From Malacoraja senta (lineage: Eukaryota), in contig CM075989.1 of assembly GCA_038087875.1 (NCBI GenBank), positions 25,422,001-25,476,998 on the forward strand: a stretch of DNA of 54,998 nucleotides, given 5' to 3'. Under the pieces are notes generated by a model that saw nothing but the letters and a program-made list of their open reading frames with translations, was not told where the DNA came from and ran no database searches. Below are positions 1 to 54,590 of the stretch, in pieces (position 1 is the first letter of the stretch; each line of letters starts with the position of its first letter). The position numbers were made by a program, and so were the translations under genes.

Positions 1-1409
<1,409 letters not shown>

Positions 1410-2415: not shown

Positions 2416-2581
2416 ACATAGAACATCGAACAGTACAGCACAGGAACAGATCTTTTGGCCCTCATGTCCATGCTGAACATGACTCTATGATAAACTGACC
2501 TCCTCTTCCTGCACTGATACATATCCCTCCATTCCTTGCAAATCTATATGCCTATCTAAAAGCCTCTTAAATGCCACTATC
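2416..2581 (-). mobile_element. Old CR1-type 3' end, target of the Tx1 insertion (resumes at 8974-9010)
   Basis: catagaac...tacagcacaggaacag tail and catatccctcc...tctaaaagcctcttaaatgccactatc, continuing as acatctgcctccaccacc after the insertion. Confidence 0.7.
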
Positions 2582-2838
2582 TTTTGTTTATTTTTTTATT
2601 TCAAAATAGACTTTGTTCAAGTAATAAATATATACAATACGTGAACCGTGCGAAAAATTCATCCGACATTTTCGGAGGCTATACAAATTGTTCAATACAG
2701 TTAATACATTTTTTCAAATTCCACAGATCTGTCCCCCACCCATGCCACTCATGTGGCCCCCTGGCGTGGGATACCTTCCCTTATTTTGAGGGGCGTCTCC
2801 ACCATACTGTGCCCCCCATGTCCAGCAGTGGAAGGACC

Positions 2839-5800
2839 CTAGACTGTGGCCCTCCCCCACCGAGCCTTGTCGTTGGTTGCACCAAGCTTCAGTGCGTCCC
2901 TCAGCACGTACTCCTGCAGTCTGCAGCGGGCCAGTCGGCAACATTCCCTGACGGACATCTCGCTCTGCTGTGTGGTGAACAATGCTCGGGCAGACCAAAG
3001 AGCATCTTTTGCCGAGTTGATGACCCTCCAGCAGCACCCGATGTCAGTCTCTGAATGTGTCCCTGGGAACAGTCCGTAAATCACAGAGTCCTCTGTGACG
3101 GAGCTGTTCGGGATAAAGCGTTCCAGGGACCCTTGAATACTTCTCCAGACTCTTTTTGCAAATCCACACTCTGCAAAGAGGTGGGCAACCGTCTCCTCTC
3201 CATAGCAGCCGTCCCGAGGGCAGCGTGCGCTGGCAGTGAGGTTCCGACGGTGCAGGAAGGATCTGACTGGGAGGGCTCCCCTCACCGCCAGCCAAGCCAA
3301 ATCTTGGTGCTTGTTGGTGAGTTCTGGCAATGAGGCATTTTGCCAGACAAGCTGGGCAGTCTGCTCTGGGAACCACGCCACCGGATCCATGGAGTCCTTT
3401 CCCTGCAGTGCCTGCAGGACGTTCCGTGCTGACCACTGCCCAATGGACATGTGGTCAAAGGTGTTGGTCCGGAAGAACCTTTCCACAGACAGATGGTGCG
3501 GCAATGTCCAGCTGACTGGCACATTGTGTGGCATCTGCGCCAGGCCCATCCTTCGCAACACCGGGGACAGGTAGAACCTCAGCAGGTAGTGACACGGTGC
3601 CCACGTGCCTTGGTTCTACACTCCGCCTGATGCAGCCACACACAAAGATGGCCATCAGGGTGAGGGCGACGTTGGGCACGCCTTTTACCCCCGTTGTCTG
3701 CTGACTTGTACATTGTGGCCCGTCGCACCCGGTCTATCCTTGACCCCCAGATGAACTGGAAGACGGCCCGGGTGATCCCTGTGGCGTAGGAGGGAGGGAC
3801 AGGCCACACTTGCGCCAAGTACAGCAGCCCCGAGAGCACCTCACACCTGATGACCAAATTTTTTCCGGTTATGGAGAGGGAGCGTTGCCTCCACAGCTCC
3901 AGCTTCTTCCCCACCTTGACTATCCGCTCCAGCCAATTCTTGTTACACGCCTCAGCCCCCCCGAACCAGATCCCCAGCACCTTCAAGAAGTCAGGCTTGA
4001 TGGTGAAGGGGACAGAAATTCGGTCGGGCCAGTTGCCAAATAGCATGGCCTCGCTCTTCCTGCGGTTCACCCTGGCTCCCGTGGCCGACTCAAACTGGTC
4101 GCAAATACTAATCAGTCTGCGGACCGACCCTGGATCCGAGCAGAAGACAGCGACATCGTCCATGTACAGGGAGGTTTTGACTTGAATGCCCCCACTGCCT
4201 GGCAATGTCACTGCTCTTATGCTCGCATCCTTCCTGATGGACTCGGCAAAAGGTTCAATACAGCAGACAAACAAGACAGGAGAGAGAGGGCACCCCTGCC
4301 TGACTCCAGACCTTACAGGGAAACTGTCTGATTTCCACCCATTGATTTGGACTGCACTACGGATATTGGGGTAGAGCAGTTTGATCCAATTTCGGATTCC
4401 CTCCTCAAAACCCATTTTGGAGAGCACGTCCCTCATGTACGTGTGCGATATCCTGTCGAAGGCCTTCTCCTGGTCCAAGCTGACTAGGCAGGTATCCACC
4501 CATCTGTCCTGCACTTGGGCGATGGTATCTCACAGCAGCACTAGGCTGTCTGAGATTTTCCTGCCAGGTACAGCACAGGTTTGGTCCGGGTGGATCACCT
4601 GTCCCAGAGCAGACTTGACCCGGTTGGCGATGGCCTTAGACAGGATCTTATAATCTACATTCAACAATGTGATGGGTCTCCAATTCTTTATGTCCTTCAT
4701 CTCCCCCTTCTGCTTGTAGATTAGGGTGATGCTGCCCTTCCTCATCGAGTCTGACATGCTGCCGGCTAGAAGCATGTCGTTGTACACTTCCAGCAGGTCC
4801 GGGCCCACCCAGTCCCACAGAGCTGAATACAACTCGGCCGGTAAGCCATCACTTCCGGGAGTTTTACTCGAGTCAAAGGAACGGATGGAGCCAGTCAGCT
4901 CCTCTAGGGTCAGTAGTTGCTCCAGACTCTCCCGCTTGCTGTCCTCCAAGACCTCCGTGATAGAGGACAGGAAGTTTTGGAAGGCGGTGCTGTCTGTGGC
5001 CTTTTTGTCATACAAATCCGTATAAAAGGATTTGCAGATCCTCAGCATATCCGTCTGCAAGGATGTTACCGAGCCGCCCTCCTCCCTAAGGCTGTTCATC
5101 ACAGAGCTTCCCCTGTGAACCTTATGGAAGAAGAAACGTGAGCACGTCTCATCCTGCTCCACATGGCGGACCCTGGATCGGAAGATGATCTTGGAGGATT
5201 CAGAGGTAAAGAGCCGGGCTTGCCGGTCCTTCACCTCTCTAAGTTCCTCCCTCACATCCACCCCTCTCGACTGCAGAAGGAGCAGTTGTTGCAAATCTGT
5301 CTGGAGTTGGCATAATTCCCTCTGACTCTCTGAACTCTTTTAACTATGAAGAACCTCTTAATGTTCTCCTTGGTTGCTTCCCACCAGAGTGTCGGGGAGT
5401 CAAAGAGGGGCCTCACCGTTCTCCAACATGCGTAGTCCCTCTTTAGCTCCTCAACGTTCTCTGCGGTCAACAGTTTCATATTTAACTTCCACGTCCCTCT
5501 GCCTGCCTTCTGGTCCTCCTGTAGGTGACAGAAAGCCCGAAGGAGGCAGTGGTCAGAGAAGAACACCGGCGTGAGGTCGGTGTGTCTCACCGTGACAGCC
5601 TTCGTCGTGAAGACAAATGTACGATCTCGACCAGGTGAACTGCGGCTGGGACCCGCCTGCAGGGTTGCTGAAGGCATCATCACCAGGTGAACTGCTGCTG
5701 GGACCCACCTGCAGGGTTGCTGAAGGCGTCGTGCAGCTTTGCATCTTTGACCGTCTCCATGAGGAACTTGGACGTGCTTGTCCAGTCTGTTGTCGGCACT

Positions 5801-7279
5801 GCCGGATCGTCCAGCCGCATCGATGATGCAGTTGAAGTCACCGGCCAGAACGAGCTGCCGGGACGTGGCCAGCAGCACTGGGAGCTGCTGGAGAACGGCC
5901 AGCCGCTCGCTCTGCACGGGTGAGGCATACACATTAATCAGCCGGAGCGGAGAACCACGGTACATAACATCCACCATGAGGAGACGGCCCCCAACCACCT
6001 CCCTGACCTCAGTGATGGCGAAGTTCCCTCCCCGCAGCAAGATCCCCAGGCCAGAATCGCAACAGTCATTGCCCCCCGACCACACCGACTGTCCGTGGAG
6101 CCACCATCGCGACCACCTCCGATAGCAACGGAGGTGTGGCAGCCCGCACTCCTGAAGAAAAGTCACATCTGCCTTGACCTTGGCCAGGTACTGTAAGGCA
6201 TTAACACATAGAAACATAGAAAATAGGTGCAGGAGTAGGCCATTCGGCCCTTCGAGCCTGCACCGCCATTCAATATGATCATGGCTGATCATCCAACTCA
6301 GTATCCCGTACCTGCCTTCTCTCCATACCCCCTGATCCCTTTAGCCACAAGGGCCACATCTAACTCCCTCTTAAATATAGCCAATGAACTGGCCTCAACT
6401 ACCTTCTGTGGCAGAGAATTCCACAGATTCACCACTCTCTGTGTAAAAAATGATTTTCTCATCTCGGTCCTAAAAGACTTCCCTCTTATCCTTAAACTGT
6501 GACCCCCTAGTTCTAGACTTCCCCAACATCGGGAATAATCTTCCTGCATCTAGCCTGTCCAACCCCTTAAGAATTTTGTAAGTTTCGATAAGATCCCCCC
6601 TCAATCTTCTAAATTCTAGCGTGTACAAGCCGAGTCTATCCAGTCTTTCTTCATATGAAAGTCCTGCCATCCCAGGAATCAGTCTGGCGAACCTTCTCTG
6701 TACTCCCTCTATGGCAAGAATGTCTTTCCTCAGATTAGGAGACCAAAACTGTACGCAATACTCCAGGTGTGGTCTCACCAAGACCCTGTACAACTGCAGT
6801 AGAACCTCCCTGCTCTTATACTCAAATCCTTTTGCTATGAATACTAACATACCATTTGCTTTCTTCACTGCCTGCTGCACCTGCATGCCTACTTTCAATG
6901 ACTGGTGTACCATGACACCCAGGTCTCGTTGCATCTCCCCTTTTCCTAATCGGCCACCATTCAGATAATAGTCTACTTTCCTGTTTTTGCCACCAAAGTG
7001 GATAACCTCACATTTATCCACATTATACTGCATCTGCCATGCATTTGCCCACTCACCCAACCTATCCAAGTCACCTTGCAGCCTCCTAGCATCCTCCTCA
7101 CAGCTAACACTGCCCTCCAGCTTCCTGTCATCCGCAAACTTGGAGATGTTGCATTCAATTCCCTCATCCAGATCATTAATATATATTGTAAATAACTGGG
7201 GTCCCAGCACTGAGCCTTGCGGTACCCGCGCAGTGCTCTTTATACTGCGCACGTTTAAAGATGCCAGTTTTAGCTCCAT
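2839..7279 (-). pseudogene. Tx1 ORF2 (AP endonuclease, reverse transcriptase, C-terminal CxxxC..HLF.EC motif), disrupted
   Basis: ATG at 7279 gives MELKLASLNVRSIKSTAR, resuming after the CR1 insert as CVNALQYL..FLQE..GDFNC..SDH; RT motifs PGSDGLP, WRPITLLNVDYKI, LDQEKAFDR, GVRQGCPLSP, YMDD; several frameshifts. Confidence 0.92.
6209..7226 (-). mobile_element. Young 5'-truncated CR1 nested in the Tx1 endonuclease
   Basis: VPQGSVLGP, KFADD and LVRPHLEYCVQFWSP, ending in GEKAGTGY*; (TTTCTATG) tail; near-identical to copies at 24.2, 28.2, 44.0 and 53.3 kb. Confidence 0.95.
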
Positions 7280-7290
7280 TGTCTTTAGAG

Positions 7291-8747
7291 TCACTGACCA
7301 TTCTCGTGTCCCCTCATGCCCACCGCTTCGGTGAATTGCCTCCGCTTTCTTGGGCTCAGGAACCCGGTGCCGGCATCCTCGATGAGGTGGGTTTCCTGTG
7401 GCGTAACCCAAGGTGTCGTTGGGGGGGGCCTACTCGTTCCACCCTCTTCTGGGCGCGCTGCTGCCTCCATCTCCTGTAGTTGGGGTATGGTGGCTGGTTC
7501 AGGGGTTGGATACCCTCGGCCGCTGCCCTCATTCCGATGTCCTGGGGCTGGAGCCCATCGGCCGCTGCTCTGCTCTCGGTCTCCTGGGGCTGGGGGATGA
7601 TCGGCGTGGCCTTTCTCTTTTCCTCCCCTGTTTTCTTCCTCTGCCTCCATCGTTGGGACTTCCCGGTCGCCTCATCCTCCGATGAGGAGAGGTTGCTGCC
7701 TTCTGTCAGGGAGAGAGATCTTTTTGGGGATTTATTTTTGGACTTACCAGCCCTTTCCGACCTCGGCTCTTTCGGCTGAACCCTCTGGTGCTTCTTGTAC
7801 GTCACCGTCGTCCATTTATCCTGCTGTTCCCCCTCCTCCATTGACTCTCCCTCCTGGGCAGGGTGCTGGGGGCCTCCTTCCGGCACTTGGGGGCTCGAGC
7901 TGGTCGGGCTGTCCTCGTCCCTGTTCCCCCTTTCTGCTGGGGTCTTGGCAGTGGTGGGGGGTGTCTCACCCACCCTGGAGGTGCTGGCAGCAGCCCCTCT
8001 TGTCGCCTGAGCATAGGTGCAGGCTCTTTTAGGGCAGGCCCTGTAAAGGTGGCCTGCCTCCCCGCACAGGTTGCAGTTCTTGCTGGCCTGACAGTCCTTT
8101 GTCTCATGGCCCTCCGTCTTGCAGTTCTTGCAGACAACTGCAGTGCATTGGACCATCACATGCCCAGGCTTGTTGCATTTCCTGCACAGTCTGGGCTGCC
8201 CCACGTAGCTCATGTATCCTCGGTTTCCTCCAATCGCGAAAACCGAGAGAGGGTGGAGGATTGCTCCGTCCTTGTACACCCTCAGCTTTACCTTCACTTG
8301 CCGCTTGCTCGTCCAGATCCCATTCAGGTCCTTCACGTCCACGCAGTTCCATGTTCCCTCAACGTAACGAGCAAGGAAGGTGAGGACATCCACTACGGGC
8401 ACATGTGGGTTGAACATGTGCACCATGATCATCCTGTCCTTCTGGGTGGGGGGGATGAAGAGCGGCTGCACTTTCAGTAGCGACAGCGGAGCTTCATTTC
8501 CCTTCTCCCGGAAGTCTTCCATCAACTTTTGCCTTCCCGTCGGATACTTGAAGGTAACATCAAAGTATCCGTTACCCGGGAAGTCCTGGAGGCAGTAGAT
8601 GTCCTTGGCCTCAAATTTGCAGGCCTCTAGCAAGACCTTCTTCACGAACAGGTCTCATGAGAAGGGGGTCCCCTTGCTGAGGTCCTTAACGCTGATTCTC
8701 AGGGTATTGCGGATACCCTGTACTCCCGCTCCAGTTGCTGCTGCCAT
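7291..8747 (-). pseudogene. Tx1 ORF1, zinc-knuckle (ZCCHC3-like) protein
   Basis: ATG at 8747 gives MAAATGAGVQGIRNTLRISVK, with an in-frame TGA near 8655; knuckles CRKCNKPGHVMVQC, CKNCKTEGHETKDC and CNLCGEAGHLYRAC; 3' end uncertain because of a frameshift. Confidence 0.9.
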
Positions 8748-8855
8748 TGTGGCTGAATGAGGTGTTAGGTTGGTTACCCAACCAGCATGGATCCACCTCT
8801 AAGCCCGCAGCTGACCGACTCCTCGTCACCGATTTCGCGCCGCGATCCACGGCCC

Positions 8856-8899
8856 TTGTCCCCAAGGGACCGCCAGAAATGTTCTAATAAGAACAGATA
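8856..8899 (-). ncRNA. U2 snRNA-like segment (about U2 nt 37-86) in the Tx1 5' UTR
   Basis: Minus strand TATCTGTTCTTATTAGAACATTTCTGGCGGTCCCTTGGGGACAA versus U2 TATCTGTTCTTATCAGTTTAATATCTGATACGTCCTCTATCCGAGGACAA: 13-nt exact match and two hairpins at the stem IIa and IIb positions. Confidence 0.65.
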
Positions 8900-8917
8900 G
8901 TCTCTTTTACTCAAATA

Positions 8918-8973
8918 CTCATCCTGGGAGAACCTCCTTGGTGATCAAGGTCTCTCCCCTGCCAGGTAAGTAT
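8918..8973 (-). ncRNA. U1 snRNA 5' fragment (nt 1-56) forming the 5' end of the Tx1 element
   Basis: Minus strand ATACTTACCTGGCAGGGGAGAGACCTTGATCACCAAGGAGGTTCTCCCAGGATGAG; 49/56 identical to vertebrate U1 as recalled, first 21 nt exact; no Sm site, so not a functional U1 gene. Confidence 0.93.
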
Positions 8974-9294
8974 TAAATGCCACTATCACATCTGCCTCCA
9001 CCACCCTCTGTGTAAGTGTGTGTACATGACAGTGGTCCTACAGATCTGCTGACTTTCCACGCTGAGACACACCATAGAGCTATACTGGGATCTCTCTGCC
9101 TCTGAAGATGAAGCTTAAAATGGCCCTGAACTCCTCAGTCTTTGGACATATGGATTGGCTGCAACCTGCCATAGATCACTCAGAACCGATAGTTTGCTGC
9201 AATCACATTGTGAAAGAGACTCCATTTAAAGTCAGGACAATTCAGCCCAACTGGGGAGTGGACAGCAGGCACCACATCACGCTGATTTGCCTCA

Positions 9295-13580: not shown

Positions 13581-15191
13581 GCATGTGCGGACGTGGCACC
13601 GACGGATGAGAGGCCAAAGCAAAGAAGTCTAAGCCAAAGAACCGAATGGAAACGAGGCCGAAACGCCAATAAACCGAATGAGTACAAAGACGAAACGCCT
13701 ACTAACTGAAACGATGGGACGCCTAAATGCAAACTAACCGAAAGGGCGGGATGCCTAAAAGCCAACGAACTGAAAAGCTGCGTTGCCTAAAAGCAAACTT
13801 ACCGAATGGCCGCTCTGTCAAAACGCCACCTACCCGAAAGGCGGCGTCGCCTACACGCCAACGGACCGACTGCCGCTCAACAGAAAAGTCCAATAACGGA
13901 CATGACGTTGCCAGGGGGCAGGACCTCTCAGCGATTGGTCCAGACCCCCGCGTCCATCACATCACTGTGAAGGCATGAACATTGTCCCACACCTACGCTC
14001 CACCCAACCCACAGCCCGCGGAGGGTGGTCATGGGCGAGTGGGGGCTGTCCTGAGGGATGCGCACCTTCGGCCGCTATCAACTTGGTGCTTGGGTTCAGA
14101 TTGTTCAGTCACCTATGGCTTGTGTGGGAAAAGGACCCCCACGCTCCCATCACCCCTTCTCTCTCCCCTCTTCTCCCTCTCCCTTCTCTCTCTCCCTTCT
14201 CTCCCTCCCTTCTTTCTCTCCCCCAGAGAATGTGTTTGTCCCCCATGTTTTCAAAGCGATTTACTCTGCCCCGAGCCGTCTATCCCCACGGCCGGGATGA
14301 ATCACCCGGTGTGGGTGTCAGAGTCTGGGGGTCGGGGGGGGGGGGTGGAATCACCCTGGTGTGGGGGTGTGACTGTGGGACGCTCCCGCTGGTGGAGATG
14401 AAGGAGAGAGAGAAGGGGGAGAGAAGGGGAGTGAGAGAACAGAGAGAGAGGGGGGGGGAGAGAGGAGGGGAAGAGAGAGGAGGAGAAAGAGAAGGGGAGA
14501 GAGAGAAGGGAGGGAGAGAAGGGAGAGAGAGGGGGGAGGGAGAGAGAAGGGAGAGAGGGGGGAGAGGGAGAGAGAAGGGAGAGAGGGGGGAGAGGGAGGA
14601 GAGGAAGAGAGAGAGGAGGGGGAGAGAGGGGAGGAGGAGAGGGGAGAGGGGGAAGAGAGGAGGGGAAGAGAGGAGGAGAGGGAGAAGGGAAGAGAGAAGA
14701 GAGGGAGAGAAGGGTAGACGGAGGAGAGAGAGGAGGAGAGTGAGAAGGAGAGAGAAGAGGGGAGAGAGGAGGGGAGGGGAGAGAGAGGAGGAGAGAGAGA
14801 AGAGTGGAGAGAGGAGGAGGGAGATAAGAGGGGAGAGAGAGGACAAGAGAGAATGGGAAGAGAGGGAGAGAGAGAAGAGGGGAGAGAGAAGGGGGAGATG
14901 GGAGTGTGGGTGTCCTTTTCCCACACAAGCCATAGGTGACTGGGCAATCTGAACCCAGGCACCAAGTTGAAAGCGGCCGAAGGTGTGCATCCCTCGGGAC
15001 AGTCCCCACTCCCCCACGGCCACACTTCGCGGGCTGCGGGTCGGGTGGAGCGGAGGTGTGGGACAGTGATGTGATGAACGCGGGGGTCTGGACCAATGGC
15101 TGACAAGTCCCGCCCCCCGTCAACGTCATGTCCATTATTGGACTTTTCTGTTGAGCGGCAGGCGGTCCGTTGGCGCCATGTCCGGGTACCC
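13581..15191. mobile_element. Non-autonomous foldback-like DNA element with long inverted arms and 16-bp subterminal repeats
   Basis: About 13856-14220 is the reverse complement of about 14860-15175; both ends share CGGACRTGGCRCCRACGGA; the left arm has a 16/32-bp periodic array; no TSD recognised. Confidence 0.65.
14400..14900 (+). repeat. Polypurine (G/A) low-complexity tract
   Basis: About 500 bp almost exclusively G and A. Confidence 0.95.
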
Positions 15192-25947: not shown

Positions 25948-26013
25948 GTCGGGGCATTGAACCCCGGTCTCCCGCGTGACAGGCGGGAATACTAACCACT
26001 ATACTAACGAGAA
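25948..26013 (-). tRNA. tRNA-Asp(GTC)-derived unit lacking the 3' acceptor strand, followed by T5
   Basis: Minus strand TTCTCGTTAGTATAGTGGTTAGTATTCCCGCCTGTCACGCGGGAGACCGGGGTTCAATGCCCCGAC-TTTTT; about 5 differences from vertebrate tRNA-Asp nt 1-66 as recalled; A box, B box and anticodon GTC (25978-25980) intact; cannot form an acceptor stem. Confidence 0.9.
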
Positions 26014-26039: not shown

Positions 26040-28250
26040 TCAGAATTCTTCATCGACACTTCCATCTTCACTTTTGCCTTCTAGAAGCAAGCATAACTTG
26101 GTTATTGGTCTTATTAAAACACTGTTTTTAGTTTGAAATCGTACCGTACGCACCAAACCCTTAACATCAGGCACGATTTCTAGTATTCTCCCCATCAGCC
26201 GAGAACCTCATGATGCTGTGGAATCAACCACCAACACAATGTCACCTGGAACAAAATTCCTTTTAATTCTTAACCATCGTTGTCATTCTTGGATCAAAGG
26301 CAAATACTCTTGTATACATCTCCTCGAAAAAAGATTTGCCATATATTTTACTTGTTTCCATCTGCGTCTCATATACAAGTCTTCTTTTACAAAAATCCCA
26401 GGTGGTAGTGTTGGATTGGTCTTCAGCAGAATATGATTTGGTGTAAGTACTTCTACGTCTTTCGGGTCATCAGAATTCTTAGTAATAGGTCGATTATTTA
26501 AAATTGCTTCAACTTCACAAAACAAAGTCTGTAATCCTTCGTCATCTAGAATTTGTTGTTTAAGAACAGAGCGCAGCACATTTCGTACCATGCGAATGAA
26601 CCGTTCCCACATGCCACCATGATGAGAACACTTCGGAGGGTTAAAGTTTCATCTTATTCCTTGATGAAGCATAGTTTTCTGGATTTTATCCTGATTTAAG
26701 CTTTTAAGCGCCTTCTTTAGTTCTCTTTCCACTCCAACAAAATTTGAACCGTTATCTGATCTTAACGATGAAACTTGACCTCGTCGACAGATAAATCTCC
26801 TTAATGCATGAATACAGGAGCCTGTGTCAAGCGTAGATGCAACTTCAAGATGCACTGCTCTACTTGCCATACAAGTGAAGATCACACCATACCTTTTCAC
26901 AAAGTCTTGTCCTCTTTTAAACTCTATAGGACCGAAATAATCCACCCCCACATCTGTAAACGGAGGTTTATCCAGTGTGATCCTTTCTAGAGGTAACTCT
27001 GCCATCTTCTGTACACCAAATCTCCCACGTGCACAATACAATATTTTATTATTTTTCTTGCGGCGGAATTAGCCTTGATAACCCAATATTTTTAACAAAG
27101 CTGGGATAACATATAATTTCTTCCTCCATGTCCAATCCGTTCATGAATATGTCACAATAATAGTGTCGATATGTAAAAGTCCTTCGAGAGAATAATAGGG
27201 TGTTTAGCATCTTCAGGCATTGCCAATTTATTTAGGCGACCTCCCATCCTCAGAAGTCCTTCCTCCAATACTGGGTCAAACTTGTACAATTGACTGTCTC
27301 TTTTTACCCCATGTACTACAGCTTCTAATGTTGATATCTCTTCTTTATATTTCTGTCTTTGACAGAACGAGATAATCGTATTTTCCGCCTTGAGGAGATC
27401 ATCAAGACGTAAATCCTGTACGCCATATGATGCCTTAAACTTGCATCTGGCTTCCAACCTTTTTCTTCCGTATATCAGGATCTTCTTCAAGGATACTTTC
27501 AGTAATCCGTCTTCTTTTCCGAGCAAACAGTAATAATCTTGTTTTTAGTTTAAGAAACCAGGCTACTGCAGTTATCAATTTATTTTATGATGAAAAGTGG
27601 GTAATTAAATCATTTATGGTATTTGATGAATCTTTAGCAATTACGTTCACCGTAAAACGTTGTTTAATTTCCGGATCATTAGCAGAGATTTCACATCCCA
27701 GTTCAAGTTTTGGCCATTCTCTGTTTGACTTACAGAGAAACTCTGGTCCATTGATCCTCTCTTGTTGCTTAAGAAGCAGTTTGCTGTCAGCCCTCTAGAG
27801 GCTTGATCTGCAGGATTTTCTTTTGTGTTAACCTATTTCCATTGTGAAACATTAGTAGCTCCCAATACAATAGAGACTCTATTCGCTACAAATGTCATAA
27901 AGCGTTTGTTTTCATTATTGAAGTATACAAGTACCGTAGTGCTATCGGTCCAGAAGATAGATTCTTCCAGTTGAAGCTGTAGTTCCTTTTGCATCATTAT
28001 GTCAACTTTAACAGCCAAGACTGCCGCAGTAAGTTCCATTCTGGGAATTGTCATTTGTTTCAATGGTGCCACTCTGGCTTTTCCCATCAAGAATGCAACA
28101 TGTATTTCATTGTTATCATTTTCCAGTCTTAAATACGAAACAGTACCATAGCCACTTTCACTGGCATCTGAGAAATTATGCAACTGTGCACTTCTGATTT
28201 TACCAAAGCTTTTAGGCTTTATGCACCAGTCCACCTTGAATTTTGAAATC
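26040..28250 (-). pseudogene. BEL/Pao pol C-terminal part (RNase H region, integrase, DUF5641-like tail), disrupted
   Basis: QLHNFSDASESGYG, KARVAPLK..TIPRMELTAA, FWTDS, GVDYFGP, RAVHLE, SDNGSNF, LNNRP, RPITKLCLL; stop at 26040-26042. Confidence 0.92.
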
Positions 28251-29566
28251 ATTGGACAAAGTCAGCATGGATTTACGAACGGTAAATCATGTCTGACGAA
28301 TCTTATAGAATTTTTCGAGGATGTAACTAGTAGAGTGGATAGGGGAGAACCAGTGGATGTGTTGTATCTGGACTTTCAGAAGGCTTTCGACAAGGTACCA
28401 CATAAGAGATTAATATACAAACTTAAAGCACACGGTATTGGGGGTTCAGTATTGATGTGGATAGAGAACTGGCTGGCAAACAGGAAGCAAAGAGTAGGAG
28501 TAAACGGGTCCTTTTCACAATGGCAGGCAGTGACTAGTGGGGTACCGCAAGGCTCAGTGCTGGAACCCCAGCTATTTACAATTTATATTAATGAGCTGGA
28601 TGAGGGAATTGAAGGCAACATCTCCAAGTTTGCGGATGACACTAAGCTGGGGGGCAGTGTTAGCTGTGAGGAGGATGCTAGGAGACTGCAAGGTGACTTG
28701 GATAGGCTGGGTGAGTGGGCAAATGTTTGGCAGATGCAGTATAATGTGGATAAATGTGAGGTTATCCACTTTGGTGGCAAAAACAGGAAAGCAGACTATT
28801 AACTAAATGGCGGCCGATTAGGAAAAGGGGAGATGCAGCGAGACCTGGGTGTCATGGTACACCAGTCATTGAAAGTAGGCATGCAGGTGCAGCAGGCATT
28901 GAAGAAAGCTAATGGTATGTTAGCTTTCATAGCAAAAGGATTTGAGTATAGGAGCAGGGAGGTTCTACTGCAGTTGTACAGGGTCTTGGTGAGACCACAC
29001 CTGGAGTATTGCATACAGTTTTGGTCTCCAAATCTGAGGAAGGACATTATAGCCATAGAGGGAGTGCAGAGAAGGTTCACCAGACTGATTCCTGGGATGT
29101 CATGACTTTCATATGAAGAAAGACTGGATAGACTCGGCTTATACTCGCTAGAATTTAGGAGATTGAGAGGGGATCTTATAGAAACTTACAAAATTCTTAT
29201 GGGGTTGGACAGGCTAGATGCAGGAAGATTGTTCCCGATGTTGGGGAAGTCCAGGACAAGGGGTCACAGCTTAAGGATAAGGGGGAAATCCTTTAAGACC
29301 GAGATGAGAAAAAACGTTTTCACACAGAGAGTGGTGAATCTCTGGAACTCTCTGCCACAGACGGTAGTTGAGGCCAGTTCATTGGCTATATTTAAGAGGG
29401 AGTTAGATGTGGCCCTTGTGGCTAAAGGGATCAGGGGGTATGGAGAGAAGGCAGGTACGGGATACTGAGTTGGATGATCAGCCATGATCATATTGAATGG
29501 CTGTGCAGGCTCGAAGGGCCGAATGGCCTACTCCTGCAACTATTTTCTATGTATCTATGTATCTAT
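28244..29566 (+). mobile_element. Young 5'-truncated CR1 replacing the 5' half of the BEL element
   Basis: SQHGF..SCLTNL through GEKAGTGY*; (TATCTATG)n tail. Confidence 0.95.
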
Positions 29567-38227: not shown

Positions 38228-41200
38228 GAGTCCACCCCTCCAGACGTCCACATGTGTGCCAGGTGCATCGAGATGGGGTTCCTAAGTGACCGTGTTAGGA
38301 ACCTGGAGCAGCAGCTCGATGACTTCTGTCTGATCAGGGAGAGTGAGGAGGTCATAGAAAGGAGTTATAGGAAGGTGGCCACTCCAAGACATCGGGAGGC
38401 AGACAAGTGGGTCACGGTTAGGAAGGGCAAGGGGCAGAGGCAGGGACTAGTGAGTACCCCGGTGGCTGTACACCTTGAAAATAAGTACTCCTGTTTGAGT
38501 ACTGTTGGGGGGACAGCCTTCCTGGGGGTAGCAACAGCGGCCGGGCCTCCGGCACAGAGACCGGCCCTATTGCTCAGAAGGGTAGGGAAAAGAAGAGGAG
38601 GGCAATAGTAATAGGGGGTCGGTTAGGGGGTCGGATAGGCGATTCTGTGGACGCAGTCAGGAGACCCGGATGGTAGTTTGCCTCCCTGGTGCCAGGGTCA
38701 GGGATGTGTCTGAACGCGTCCAAGATATCCTGAAATCGGAGGGAGAGGAGCCTGAGGTTGTGGTACATATAGGTACCAATGACATAGGCAGAAAAAGAGA
38801 AGAGGTTCTGAAAGGAGAATTTAGGGAGTTGTGAGGAGAGTTAAGGAGAAGGACCGCAAAGGTAACAATCTCAGGATTACTACCTGTGCCACGCGACAGT
38901 GAGAGTAGGAATGGAATGAGGTGGAGGATAAATGCGTGGCTGAGGAACTGGTGCAGCGGGCAGGGATTCAAATTTCTGGATCATTGGGACCTCTTTTGGG
39001 GAAGGTGTGACCTGTACAGAAAGGACGGGTTGCACTTGAACCCGAGGGGGACCAATATCCTGGCGGGGAGATTTGCAAAGGCTACTGGGGAGACTTTAAA
39101 CTAGAACGGTTGGGGGGAGGGACTCAAATAGAGAAAGCTAGTAGAAAATGGGAGGCAGGAGGCAGAGAAGGGAAGCACTTGGACCCAAAATGTAGGGGAG
39201 AAAGAAGAAAAAGATAATAAACAGAGAATAAGTGGTGGTGGGTTTCTTAAATGTGTATATTTTAATGCTAGGAGCATTGTAAGAAAGGTGGATGAGCTTA
39301 GAGTCTGGATTGACACCTGGAAGTATGATGTTGTGGCGATCAGTGAAACATGGTTGCAGGAGGGCTGTGAATGGAAACTAAATATTCCAGGATTTCGTTG
39401 CTTCAGGGGTGATAGAATTGGAGGGGCAAGAGGTGGGGGTGTTGCATTGCTTGTCAAGGAAGATATTACAGCAGTGCTTTGGCAGGATAGATTAGAGGGC
39501 TCGTCTAGGGAGGCTATTCTGGTGGAACTGAGAAATGGGAAAGGTGTAGCAACACTTATAGGGGTGTATTATGGACCGCCAAATGGGGAGCGAGAATTGG
39601 AAGAGCAAATATGTAAGGAAATAGCAGATATTAGTAGTAAGCACAAGGTAGTGATTGTGGGAGATTTCAATTTTCCACACATAGACTGGGAAACACATTC
39701 TGTAAAAGGGCTGGATGGTTTGGAGTTTGTAAAATGTGTGCAGGATAGTTTTTTGCAGCAATACATAGAGGTGCCTACTAGAGAAGGGGCAGTGCTGGAC
39801 CTCATGTTAGGAAATGAGACGGCAGGTGGCGGAGGTATGCGTTGGGGAGCACTTCGGGTCCAGTGATCACAATACCATTAGTTTCAATATAATTATGGAG
39901 AGGGTCAGAACTGGACCTAGGGTTGAGATTTTTGATTGGAGAAAGGCTAACTTTGAGGAGATGCGAAAGGATTTAAAAGGAGTGAATTGGGACATGTTGT
40001 TTTATGGGAAGGATGTAGAAGAGAAATGGAGGACATTTAAAGGTGACATTTTAAGAGTACAGAATCTTTATGTCCCTGTTCGGTTGAAAGGAAATAGTAA
40101 AAATTGGAAAGAGCCATGGTTTTCACGGGAAATTGGACACTTGGTTCGGAAAAAGAGAGAGATCTATAATCATTATAGGCAGCATGGAGTAAATGAGGTG
40201 CTTGAGGAGTATAAAGAATGTAAAAAGAATATTAAGAAAGAAATTAGAAAAGCTAAAAGAAGATATGAGGTTGCTTTGGCAAGTAAGGTGAAAGTAAATC
40301 CAAAGAGTTTCTACAGCTATATTAATAGCAAAAGGACAACAAGGAATAAAATTGGTCCATTAGAGAGTCAGAGTGGACAGCTATATGCAGAGCCAAAAGA
40401 GATGGGGGAGATATTGAACAATTTATTTTCTTCGGTATTCACCAAGGAGAAGGATATGGAATTATGTGAGGCAAGGGAAACAAGCAGAGTAGCAGTGGAA
40501 ACTATGAGATTCAAAGAAGAGGAGGTGCAGACACTTTTGAAAAATATGAAAACGGATAAGTCTCCAGGTCCTGACAGGATATTCCCTAGGACATTGAGGG
40601 AAGTTAGTGTAGAAATAGCAGGGGCTTTGACAGAAATATTTCAAATGTCATTAGAAACGGGAATAGTGCCGGAGGATTGACGTACTGCGCATGTTGTTCC
40701 GTTGTTTAAAAAGGGTTCTAAGAGTAAACCTAGCAATTATAGACCTGTTAGTTTGACGTCAGTGGTGGGCAAATTAATGGAAAGGATACTTAGAGATAAT
40801 ATATATAAGCATCTGGATAAGCAGGGTCTGATTAGGAACAGTCAACATGGATTTGTGCCTGGAAGGTCATGTTTGACTAATCTTCTTGAATTTTTCGAAG
40901 AGGTTATTAGATAAATTGATGAGGGTAAAGCAGTGGATGTTGTCTATATGGACTTCAGTAAGGCCTTTGACAAGGTTCCTCATGGAAGGTTGGTTAAGAA
41001 GATTCAATTGTTGGGTATTAATGGTGGAGTAGCAAGATGGATTCAAAAGTGGCTGAATGGGAGATGCCAGAGAGTAATGGTGGATGGCTGTTTGTCAGGT
41101 TGGAGGCCGGTGACTGGTGGGGTGCCTCAGGGGTCTGTGTTGGGTCCACTGTTGTTTGTCATGTACATCAATGATCTGGATGATGGTGTGGAAAATTGGA

Positions 41201-42138
41201 TTAGTAAGTATGCAGATAATACTAAGATATGTGGTGGTGTGGATAATGAAGTAGAGTTTCAAAGCCTACAGAGAGATTTAGGCCATTTGGAAGAGTGGGC
41301 TGAAAGATGGCAAATGGAGTTTAATGCTGATAAATGTGAGGTGCTACATCTCGGCAGGACAAATCAAAATAGGACGTACATGGTTAATGGTAGCGAATTG
41401 AGGAATGCAGTTGAACAGAGGGATCTAGGAATAACTGTGCATAGTTCCCTGAAGGTGGAATCTCATGTAGATAGGGTGGTAAAGAAAGCTTTTGGTGTGC
41501 TGGCCTTTATAAATCAGAGCATTGAATATAGAAGTTGGGATGTAATGTTAAAATTGTACAAGGCATTGGTGAGGCCAATTCTGGAGTATGGAGTACAATT
41601 TTGGTCGCCTAATTATAGGAAGGATGTCAACAAAATAGAGAGAGTACAGAGGAGATTTACTAGAATGTTGCCTGGGTTTCAGCAACTAAGTTACAGAGAA
41701 AGGTTGAACAAGTTAGGTCTTTATTCTTTGGAGCGCAGAAGGTTAAGAGGGGACTTGATAGAGGTCTTTAAAATTATGAGCGGGTTAGACAGAGTTGACG
41801 TGGATAAGCTTTTCCCATTGAGAGTAGGGAAGATTCAAACAAGGGGACATGACTTGAGAATTAAGGGACAGAAGTTTAGGGGTAACATTAGGGGGAACTT
41901 CTTTACTCGTAGCTGTGTGGAATGAGCTTCCAGTGGAAGTGGTGGAGGCAGGTTCAATTTTATCCTTTAAAAATAGATTGGATGTGTATATGGACGGGAA
42001 AGGAATGGAGGGTTATGGTCTGAGTGCAGGTAGATGGGACTAGGGGGAAGTAATTAAATAATAATAAAAAATTGTTCGGCACGGACTTGAAGGGGCGAGA
42101 TGGCCTGTTTCCGTGCTGTAATGGTTATATGGTTATAT
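38228..42138 (+). mobile_element. Nearly full-length CR1 (most of ORF1 plus ORF2 EN-RT), inactivated
   Basis: ORF1 CARC/esterase HIGTNDIG; ORF2 YFNARSI, ISETWL, GDFNFP, SDH, KSPGPD, QHGF, DFSKAFDKVP; catalytic YADD changed to YADN, stops near 40680 and 40914, frameshift near 39815; (ATGGTTAT) tail. Confidence 0.95.
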
Positions 42139-53260: not shown

Positions 53261-54590
53261 AAGTGGTGAAATCATTGGACAAAGTCAGCATGGATTTACG
53301 AAAGGTAAATCGTGTCTGACGAATCTTATAGAATTTTTCGAGGATGTAACTAGTAGAGTGGATAGGGGAGAACCAGTGGATGTGTTGTATCTGGACTTTC
53401 AGAAGGCTTTCGACAAGGTACCACATAAGAGATTAGTATACAAACTTAAAGCACACGGTATTGGGGGTTCAGTATTGATGTGGATAGAGAACTGGCTGGC
53501 AAACAGGAAGCAAAGAGTAGGAGTAAACAGGTCCTTTTCACAATGGCAGGCAGTCACTAGTGGGGTACTGCAAGGCTCAGTGCTGGGACCCCAGCTATTT
53601 ACAATTTATATTAATGAGCTGGATGAGGGAATTGAAGGCAACATCTCCAAGTTTGCGGATGACACTAAGCTGGGGGGCAGTGTTAGCTGTGAGGAGGATG
53701 CTAGGAGACTGCAAGGTGACTTGGATAGGCTGGGTGAGTGGGCAAATGTTTGGCAGATGCAGTATAATGTGGATAAATGTGAGGTTATCCACTTTGGTGG
53801 CAAAGACAATAAAGCAGACTATTATCTAAATGGTGGCCGATTAGGTAATGGGGAGATGCAGCGAGACCTGGGTGTCATGGTACACCAGTCATTGAAAGTA
53901 GGCATGCAGGTGCAGCAGGCAGTGAAGAAAGCGAATGGTATGTTAGCTTTCATAGCAAAAGGATTTGAGTATAGGAGCAGGGAGGTTCTACTGCAGTTGT
54001 ACAGGGTCTTGGTGAGACCACACCTGGAGTATTGCGTACAGTTTTGGTCTCCAAATCTGAGGAAGGACATTATAGCCATAGAGGGGGTGCAGAGAAGGTT
54101 CACCAGACTGATTCCTGGGATGTCAGGACTTTCATATGAAGAAAGACTGGATAGACTTGGCTTATACTCGCTAGAATTTAGGAGATTAAGAGGGGATCTT
54201 ATAGAAACGTACAAAATTCTTATGGGGTTGGACAGGCTAGATGCAGGAAGATTGTTCCCGATGTTGGGGAAGTCCAGGACAAGGGGTCACAGCTTAAGGA
54301 TAAGGGGGAAATCCTTTAAGACCGAGATGAGGAAAAACTTTTTCACACAGAGAGTGGTGAATCTCTGGAACTCTCTGCCACAGAGGGTAGTTGAGGCCAG
54401 TTCATTGGCTATATTTAAGAGGGAGTTAGATGTGGCCCTTGTGGCTAAAGGAATCAGGGGGTATGGAGAGAAGGCAGGTACGGGATACTGAGTTGGATGA
54501 TCAGCCATGATCATATTGAATGGCGGTGCAGGCTCGAAGGGCCGAATGGCCTACTCCTGGACCTATTTTCTATGTATCTATGTATCTATG
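53261..54590 (+). mobile_element. Young 5'-truncated CR1 with an uninterrupted RT frame
   Basis: Frame open to the stop at 54491 with FADD intact; (TATCTATG)n tail; inserted in an older CR1 (DKSPGP before, REAREEIAEAL after). Confidence 0.95.

What the first reader, a model, noticed from the sequence alone, without database searches (positions are those of the whole stretch)
8856..8987. Autonomous-type Tx1 LINE with a chimeric U1+U2 snRNA-derived 5' head
Seen: the element begins exactly at U1 nt 1, directly inside a 14-15 bp TSD. It carries U1 nt 1-56, an 18-nt linker and then a U2-like segment. Changes in the U1 part extend pairing (CCTTG-ATCAC-CAAGG). The U2 part is diverged but keeps hairpins at stem IIa (TTAGAA-CAT-TTCTGG) and IIb (GTCCC-TTG-GGGAC). 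Known: Tx1-clade Keno elements target U2 genes, crocodilian SINEU elements have U1/U2-derived heads and are thought to be mobilised by Tx1, and one-off snRNA-LINE template-switch chimeras exist. Inference: the structure-preserving divergence suggests a heritable family head built by successive snRNA capture. It could derive from a master copy transcribed from an snRNA promoter, or act as an snRNP mimic that protects or routes the RNA.
Basis: partly seen in the sequence, partly recalled or inferred. Interest (0 to 1): 0.9.

Follow-up and report, generated by a model that had tools for sequence, protein, structure and literature searches.

The report
LINE family with swappable snRNA cap
A family of jumping genes in a vertebrate genome starts with the first 56 bases of the host's U1 spliceosomal RNA stacked on an older piece of U2, and this cap has been swapped several times for other host U1 or U2 copies; similar RNA-capped elements are already described in crocodilians.

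Summary
Observation confirmed. A broken Tx1-type LINE (window 8973-2582, minus strand, 15-bp TSD) starts at U1 nt 1 and carries U1 1-56, an 18-nt linker and decayed U2 nt 37-84. The head is a family trait: 56 linker sites in the genome, 43 joined to U1, 3 to U2, 10 unread. It also occurs in runs of three coded organisms.

The 'structure-preserving' U1 changes are the host's own U1 alleles, and the U2 stem IIa hairpin is not predicted to form.

All five variable non-CpG head positions match variable positions of host U1 (P about 3e-5). Six of 26 independent copies carry extra or alternative U1/U2 pieces. The cap is therefore inherited and also repeatedly replaced, most likely by template switching onto cellular snRNA. 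No head lies behind a U1 promoter. Five of 26 copies sit at one spot of another repeat, and relatives abut U2 at the Keno site.

Kojima 2015 describes U1- or U2-headed Tx1 families and U1+U2 SINEU-2 in crocodilians. This scan earlier noted U2-headed Keno-type LINEs in other genomes. Verdict: a new variant of a known kind.

The parts
8973..8987 (-). 5' target-site duplication, 15 nt (last base shared with U1 nt 1)
   Evidence: family D13, 100% identical to 2567-2581
8918..8973 (-). U1 snRNA nt 1-56: 5' single strand and stem-loop I, a host U1 allele; the exchangeable cap
   Evidence: Rfam E 1.1e-8; 53/56 to the host's main U1 gene; same stem/loop haplotype as host U1 retrocopy L057 apart from one CpG change
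8900..8917 (-). Family-specific linker with the fixed cap junction (younger junction type). Predicted to pair with U1 nt 2-7. Origin unresolved
   Evidence: 56 genomic sites at <=2 mismatches, 0 in the reversed control; folding; no significant U2 similarity
8858..8899 (-). Old U2-derived layer, about U2 nt 37-84. Begins with a 13-nt exact match (8899-8887) at the Keno/Utopia insertion site, refolded into a hairpin 8896-8879, then a IIb-like G-C hairpin
8748..8857 (-). Rest of the 5' UTR, CpG-rich, conserved in the family
7356..8747 (-). ORF1 (two ZCCHC3-type RNA-binding domains, zinc knuckles); premature stop after codon 30 in this copy
   Evidence: Pfam PF23057, PF23058, PF00098; ATG at 8747
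2839..7279 (-). ORF2 (APE endonuclease, reverse transcriptase, zf-RVT), broken into several frames and interrupted
   Evidence: Pfam PF03372, PF00078, PF13966; nearest named RTs 50-54% identical, from amphibians; a protein named 'transposon TX1 149 kDa protein' at 42%
6210..7226 (-). Nested 1-kb RT-coding fragment of another LINE (CR1-like by recall), a later insertion
   Evidence: copies L019, L020, L022 join across the gap; RT domain
2582..2838 (-). 3' UTR and A-rich tail
   Evidence: 40 scored family 3' ends at 93-96% among 2647 rough candidates
2567..2581 (-). 3' target-site duplication

Best explanation
This is a dead copy of a Tx1-type, Keno-related LINE family with a layered snRNA head. 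SHOWN: an old, decayed U2 (37-84) layer and a linker are fixed in the family. On top sits a cap that is U1 1-56 in most copies and a fresh U2 piece in a minority lineage. The U1 cap carries several different host U1 alleles behind one fixed junction, and further U1/U2 pieces are stacked on some copies. INFERRED: the element moves by target-primed reverse transcription. When the RT nears the 5' end of the element RNA it often switches template to cellular U1 or U2. Inside the existing cap the switch is homology-guided: the cDNA anneals to host U1 and copies on to U1 nt 1, which keeps the junction and swaps the allele. At the very end the switch is an end-to-internal jump that adds a new piece. 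Products that become source copies pass the new cap on, so the cap is both inherited and periodically refreshed. INFERRED, weaker: the RNA is made from flanking or internal promoters, not an snRNA promoter, and the cap mainly acts as a stable 5' hairpin and landing pad, not as an snRNP.
For: Family: 43 of 56 linker sites join U1, 3 join U2, 10 unread. 16 of 26 independent copies start exactly at U1 nt 1, 8 start 3-11 nt in, and 2 have the U2 junction. All 5 non-CpG polymorphic cap sites (22, 26, 33, 34, 39; minor letter in >=3 of 25 copies) are among the 9 polymorphic sites of 30 host U1 loci, P=3.3e-5. All four combinations of stem pair 26:39 (T-A or G-C) and loop type occur, although the pair flanks the loop. 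Starred sister copies L005/L014 differ at nt 22, and both letters are host alleles. The loop type has no signal on the body tree (5 changes; 498 of 1000 shuffles as low), while the whole haplotype has some (9 vs 12.1; 6 of 1000). Six of 26 copies have extra or alternative snRNA pieces (L002, L016, L024, L030, L091, L096). In L016 and L030 the extra U1 piece is a different allele from the cap behind it. In L024, U2 1-49 lies inside the flanking repeat, whose sequence continues at the nearby 3' end L097. Seven sites join U2 to the linker, 5 with one shared junction. No promoter association. Keno kinship: family-like tails abut U2 nt 37 in 3 of 30 U2 loci (L077 54/59, L088 368/423, L089 41/52). 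Precedent: recurrent U1/U2 additions and within-head U1 replacement in SINEU-2 (PMC4494074).
Against: DNA cannot tell RNA-level switching from DNA-level gene conversion. The body tree is poorly resolved (2 of 17 branches starred), and about a third of body control columns also lack tree signal, so the loop result is weak alone. The commonest cap loop allele was found in 0 of 22 promoter-bearing U1 genes read and in only 1 of 8 other U1 copies. It may thus be inherited within the element, or its gene is extinct or unassembled. Sites that tolerate change in U1 could vary in both sets for structural reasons, which weakens the P value. The first 30 loci were picked by a query that held the U1 cap, so they are biased to it; 10 of 56 sites were not read. 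In human L1, no U1/L1 template-switch chimeras were found among 33 U1 copies (PMC4476161), so frequent U1 switching is not a general LINE trait.
Confidence: 0.68

Rival explanations
1. One U1 capture, then strict inheritance. Allele variety comes from DNA-level gene conversion between a few source copies and U1 genes, or from parallel change at tolerant sites.
For: The haplotype has tree signal (6 of 1000). The older junction goes with the G-C stem in all 6 copies with a scored cap. One insertion (duplicated, L016/L017) lies about 2 kb from a U1 gene.
Against: It does not explain extra U1/U2 pieces in 6 of 26 copies or the U2-capped lineage. It needs paired double changes to recur with the host's letters.
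Confidence: 0.17
2. A source copy sits in a U1 gene and is transcribed from the U1 promoter, which explains the starts at nt 1.
For: 16 of 26 copies start at nt 1; snRNA promoters lie upstream of the RNA (PMC4494074).
Against: 0 of 29 promoter-plus-start sites coincide with the 56 linker sites, and 0 of 36 flanks are promoter-like. One master cannot give five or more cap haplotypes plus a U2-capped lineage. Caveat: six promoter sites were not read downstream and the assembly may miss copies.
Confidence: 0.06
3. The head is a selected snRNP mimic that binds U1-70K or U2 proteins to protect or route the RNA.
For: Stem-loop I is intact: 98.7% of cells paired, one compensatory pair. The cap persists across copies 2-13% diverged and in runs of three coded organisms.
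Against: The compensatory pair is host U1 variation. There is no Sm site or stem-loop II, U2 stem IIa is replaced by another hairpin, and the branch-point-pairing bases are changed. A U2-capped lineage without the U1 junction spread too.
Confidence: 0.08
4. A one-off U1-LINE template-switch chimera at this locus.
For: One-off snRNA-LINE chimeras are known (PMC4476161).
Against: 43 of 56 sites share the U1 junction.
Confidence: 0.01

Closest known systems
Crocodilian Tx1-Mar families with snRNA heads: Tx1-2_Crp, Tx1-2B_Crp, Tx1-4_AMi (U1 head), Tx1-11_Crp (U2 head). Kojima 2015, PMC4494074; parts 1-4 of 5 of the main text read, figure and supplements not available
   Same: Autonomous-type Tx1 LINE, Keno-related, with a U1- or U2-derived 5' end and a preference for a fixed spot, in antisense, in another repeat.
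   Different: Here U1 is stacked on an older U2 layer in the LINE itself, and U1- and U2-capped lineages share one junction. The preferred repeat is a GIY-YIG-like (Penelope-like, by recall) sequence, not Mariner-N4_AMi. The cap alleles are this host's, so the U1 capture is local. Sequence homology to the crocodilian heads was not testable.
SINEU-1 and SINEU-2 (same paper)
   Same: 5' U1 + 3' U2 layout (SINEU-2, junction near its nt 53-58), recurrent 5' additions of U1/U2, replacement inside the U1 head by another U1 sequence, no known promoter.
   Different: SINEUs are short and non-coding and were reported only from crocodilians; this element has two ORFs and about 5.4 kb.
Keno (U2-specific Tx1 LINEs), as described in PMC4494074 and PMC4640811 (passages read)
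   Same: APE-type Tx1 element. A truncated near-identical tail and two sister tails abut U2 at nt 37/38 (PMC4640811 puts the shared Keno/Utopia 3' flank at about nt 39), and the head's U2 layer starts at that site.
   Different: Not U2-specific: 0 of 14 3' flanks read lie in U2, and only 2 exact tail-plus-U2 motifs were found genome-wide.
U6/L1 and other snRNA-LINE chimeras (PMC4476161, passages read)
   Same: Template switching from LINE RNA to an snRNA; internal starts on 3'-truncated snRNA as for U5.
   Different: Those are single dead-end copies, mostly U6, and no U1/L1 chimera was seen in human. Here the product is a heritable family head with a fixed junction.

Membership tests
Tx1-clade non-LTR retrotransposon | Two ORFs: ORF1 with RNA-binding domains and zinc knuckles; ORF2 with APE endonuclease, RT and C-terminal zinc domain | tested here: met
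Tx1-clade non-LTR retrotransposon | A-rich 3' tail and target-site duplication | tested here: met
Tx1-clade non-LTR retrotransposon | RT groups with named Tx1 elements in a phylogeny | tested here: inconclusive
   Similarity search only: hits have the Tx1-type domain layout and one is named TX1 protein (42%). No tree with labelled references was built; element names were not available.
Keno | Specific insertion into U2 genes at about nt 37-39 | tested here: not met
   0 of 14 3' flanks in U2; residual use of the site in 3 of 30 U2 loci and 2 exact motif hits
Keno | RT in the Keno lineage | not tested
   No verified Keno sequence in hand
snRNA-headed Tx1-Mar | U1- or U2-derived 5' head shared by the family | tested here: met
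snRNA-headed Tx1-Mar | Preference for Mariner-N4_AMi or related transposons | tested here: not met
   The shared flank is a different repeat, a GIY-YIG-like lead; no Mariner reference was compared directly
snRNA-headed Tx1-Mar | Sequence homology or common descent with the crocodilian families | not testable with these tools
   Repbase sequences and the paper's supplements were not available
SINEU | Short (<500 bp), non-coding retroposon | tested here: not met
   Two-ORF element; ORF1 follows the head in 20 of 20 long independent loci
SINEU | U1/U2 head with recurrent 5' snRNA additions | tested here: met
   6 of 26 independent copies
U1 or U2 snRNA gene | Upstream snRNA promoter, full-length RNA with Sm site | tested here: not met

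The most novel reading that the evidence does not exclude
The element uses host U1 snRNA as a routine second template. It has no promoter of its own and is read through from flanking DNA. Its linker pairs with the U1 5' end (its own or a cellular U1), and most full-length insertions get their first 40-56 bases by a homology-guided switch onto cellular U1. The 5' end would then be set by U1, not by a transcription start, and dated copies would record past U1 paralogues. The tree signal of the cap would reflect which U1 alleles were expressed when each subfamily was active. Pairing of U1 nt 1-7 with the linker beats shuffles in both junction types (2-22 of 400 in six non-independent copies; post hoc).
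Probability: 0.2. Interest if true: 0.75.

Novelty: new variant of a known kind. Interest (0 to 1): 0.42.

Why it matters
Kojima 2015 left open how snRNA-headed retroposons are transcribed and why they keep gaining U1/U2 pieces. This family is a second vertebrate case, in a protein-coding LINE, with copies only 2-6% diverged and host U1 alleles as natural markers. That makes both questions directly testable by CAGE and by a marked-cap retrotransposition assay. It also suggests a route from a U2-targeting Keno-like ancestor to snRNA-capped elements with relaxed targeting, and so to the origin of SINEU-type heads.

Tried and rejected
Rfam at gathering scores found only a tRNA in the window; U2 was not listed even at E<=10, so the host's U2 was used as reference.

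Structure-preserving divergence of the U1 part: rejected. U2 stem IIa: rejected. The Sm-like stretch that Rfam aligned in the window copy rests on a letter found in 2 of 14 aligned copies: rejected. Linker as decayed U2 nt 13-36: tempting by eye, not significant. L024 as an insertion into a U2 gene: rejected, the same repeat continues at the nearby 3' end. A U1-promoter master: not found. Binding of free U1 to the linker in trans: best duplex site in 2 of 4 copies, not in the two older-junction copies, so inconclusive.

Expression: no RNA holder listed. The one raw RNA run, from another coded organism, gave 42 reads and none at 8696-8911; this is no evidence either way.

Pfam found nothing in the 63-aa target-repeat peptide; the Atlas gave only a GIY-YIG lead (score 0.90, family on 15% of members). 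No labelled Keno protein could be identified, so no clade tree was built.

Ten linker sites, most 3' ends and six promoter-bearing U1 starts could not be read, so TSDs were seen for only a few copies and the cap census is incomplete. Rows dropped before counts: 10 of 36 loci as segmental duplicates; 6 short loci from the 20-row tree; CpG columns and cap sites 53-54.

Literature searches for a prior description outside crocodilians returned none. Repbase entries, subscription papers and the SINEU paper's figure and supplements were not seen and may hold such a family.

Full report
THE OBSERVATION. On the minus strand the window holds a LINE from 8973 to about 2582, between two exact 15-nt repeats (8973-8987 and 2567-2581). 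It has an ORF1 with two ZCCHC3-type RNA-binding domains and zinc knuckles and an ORF2 with APE endonuclease, RT and zf-RVT, the Tx1 layout. This copy is dead: ORF1 stops after codon 30, ORF2 lies in several frames, and a 1-kb piece of another LINE is nested at 6210-7226. The first base is U1 nt 1 (Rfam U1, E 1.1e-8). U1 nt 1-56 are followed by 18 linker bases and a U2-like stretch. The genome is 1.94 Gb. That it is a cartilaginous-fish-like vertebrate is my recall-based inference from its repeats; no call shows it.

IT IS A FAMILY HEAD. The 5' region finds 165 candidates, of which 40 were scored. The linker-plus-U2 motif occurs at 56 sites and at 0 in the reversed control. Of these, 43 join U1, 3 join U2 and 10 were not read. 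The 3' end has about 2647 rough candidates, so most copies are probably truncated. I read 36 heads, 26 after removing 10 segmental duplicates. Sixteen start exactly at U1 nt 1, 8 start 3-11 nt in, and 2 have a U2 junction. The first 30 loci were chosen by a query holding the U1 cap and are biased to it. Long copies differ 1.8-5.7% from the majority letter outside CpG, older short ones up to 13%. Contigs from three coded organisms also hold the head. One runs to 8973 and then into an unrelated flank, one crosses the U1 junction, and one carries the L030 junction and may be the window's own species.

THE U1 PART IS HOST U1. The window's cap matches the main gene at 53 of 56 sites. Copies carry different alleles. 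The five non-CpG sites that vary among caps (22, 26, 33, 34, 39) are all among the nine that vary among host U1 loci (P 3.3e-5). All four combinations of the 26:39 stem pair and the enclosed loop occur. On a 20-row body tree the whole haplotype shows signal (9 changes against 12.1; 6 of 1000 shuffles), the stem pair some (18 of 1000), nt 22 little (56 of 1000) and the loop none (498 of 1000). Against over-reading this: the tree is weak (2 of 17 starred), some body columns lack signal too, and the commonest cap loop allele was seen in only one host retrocopy. The simplest reading is inheritance with repeated replacement behind a fixed junction.

ONGOING CAPTURE. Six of 26 copies carry extra or alternative snRNA pieces: U2 upstream of the cap (L002, L024), a second U1 piece of a different allele (L016, L030), or U2 at the junction (L091, L096). 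In L024 the U2 piece lies inside the flanking repeat, which continues at the nearby 3' end, so it is an addition and not an insertion into a U2 gene. Seven sites join U2 to the linker, five with one shared junction, so a U2-capped lineage exists. The order of the two caps cannot be told.

THE U2 LAYER. It scores 27 against 14.9+-2.2 for shuffles (3 of 2000 in the window copy; 0-3 in six copies). The core is 13 identical bases, U2 nt 37-49. Similarity continues weakly to about nt 84 (anchored test 2-32 of 500), best in the oldest copy; the linker is not significantly U2-like. Stem IIa is not predicted (pair probability <=0.01 in 4 of 4). A different 7-bp hairpin covers the conserved U2 bases at >0.9 in 13 of 16 copies and shows no covariation. 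U1 nt 2-7 are predicted to pair with the junction or linker (>0.5 in 14 of 16 copies), more than in shuffles (2-22 of 400). This test is post hoc and the copies are related.

PROMOTER AND TARGETS. None of 29 U1 promoter-plus-start sites coincides with a linker site, and 0 of 36 flanks resemble U1 or U2 upstream DNA. Family-like tails abut U2 at nt 37 in 3 of 30 U2 loci, the site used by Keno and Utopia (PMC4640811, passages), but 0 of 14 3' flanks read lie in U2. Five of 26 heads sit in antisense within about 30 bp of one repeat that occurs 6 times in 271,150 background bases. Its peptide has only a GIY-YIG lead; the name Penelope is recalled.

MECHANISM. Shown: layered head, fixed junction, host alleles in the cap, extra snRNA pieces, a U2-capped lineage, no promoter link, relaxed targeting. 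Inferred (0.68): during target-primed reverse transcription the RT switches to cellular U1 or U2, by homology inside the cap or by a jump at the end, and some products found new source lineages. Rivals: plain inheritance with DNA conversion (0.17), snRNP mimicry (0.08), a U1-promoter master (0.06), a one-off chimera (0.01). The boldest reading not excluded (0.2) is that the switch to U1 is routine and defines the element's 5' end.

COMPARISON. Kojima 2015 (PMC4494074; parts 1-4 of 5 read; figure and supplements not seen) reports autonomous Tx1-Mar families with U1 or U2 heads, a U1+U2 SINE (SINEU-2), recurrent U1/U2 additions, replacement within a U1 head, and antisense preference for another transposon. 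It reports SINEU only from crocodilians and calls their transcription an open question. In human L1, no U1/L1 chimeras were seen (PMC4476161, passages). This element works like the snRNA-headed Tx1-Mar families. It fails the membership tests for Keno (not U2-specific) and SINEU (coding), and descent from Tx1-Mar was not testable. Eight literature searches found no description outside crocodilians; Repbase was not searchable. Earlier notes of this scan describe U2-headed Keno-type LINEs and a spliced-leader-headed system in other genomes (unchecked). None matched this sequence or this genome.

VERDICT. New variant of a known kind: a U1-on-U2 head in the LINE itself, with allele evidence that the cap is exchanged. 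Interest 0.42.

Noticed in passing
L011, L022, L024, L094, L095 (5' flanks); L029 (via a truncated copy); L097, L106 (3' flanks): Insertions cluster in antisense within about 30 bp of one abundant repeat that codes for a GIY-YIG-like (Penelope-like, by recall) peptide: 5 of 26 heads, against 6 occurrences of that stretch in 271,150 background bases.
   Followed up: partly
L002 and L096, 5' flanks: Two copies sit at the same base of another repeat (29 of 29 flank bases identical), and both begin with a U2 piece of different extent.
   Followed up: no
window 8973-9010 and L108: The window's target repeat is also hit at about the same spot in the opposite orientation.
   Followed up: no
L029 and L098: A full-length copy inserted about 33 bp inside the 5' end of a truncated copy of the same family, with a 9-nt duplication.
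   Followed up: partly
L091: Composite 5' end: a U1 piece, then a short piece matching the element's own ORF1, then a U2 piece, then the linker.
   Followed up: no
L078, L079, L084, L087: U2 genes that begin at nt 37/38 behind A- or T-rich runs with no match to this family's tail; possibly a second U2-targeting family.
   Followed up: no
L088: A sister Tx1 element at the U2 site has a 1-kb insert with short inverted ends in its 3' UTR, possibly a DNA transposon.
   Followed up: no
L016/L017 and L051: Family copies lie within 0.2-2 kb downstream of U1 genes.
   Followed up: no
G000 C2142, C4067, C657, C1554, C2580 (near 211673), C3150: Six U1 promoter-plus-start sites that match neither the U1 stem-loop pattern nor a linker site; their downstream sequence is unread.
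   Followed up: no
L031-L060: The host's U1 genes are polymorphic in stem-loop I, including a compensatory 26:39 pair and two loop types.
   Followed up: partly
window 25948-26008 (-): tRNA match (model 6-65 of 71, anticodon GTC) cut short and followed by a T run.
   Followed up: no
window 224-1072, 28152-28802, 39132-41925, 53262-54491; 14395-14898: Further LINE RT or endonuclease fragments and a long GA-rich array.
   Followed up: no
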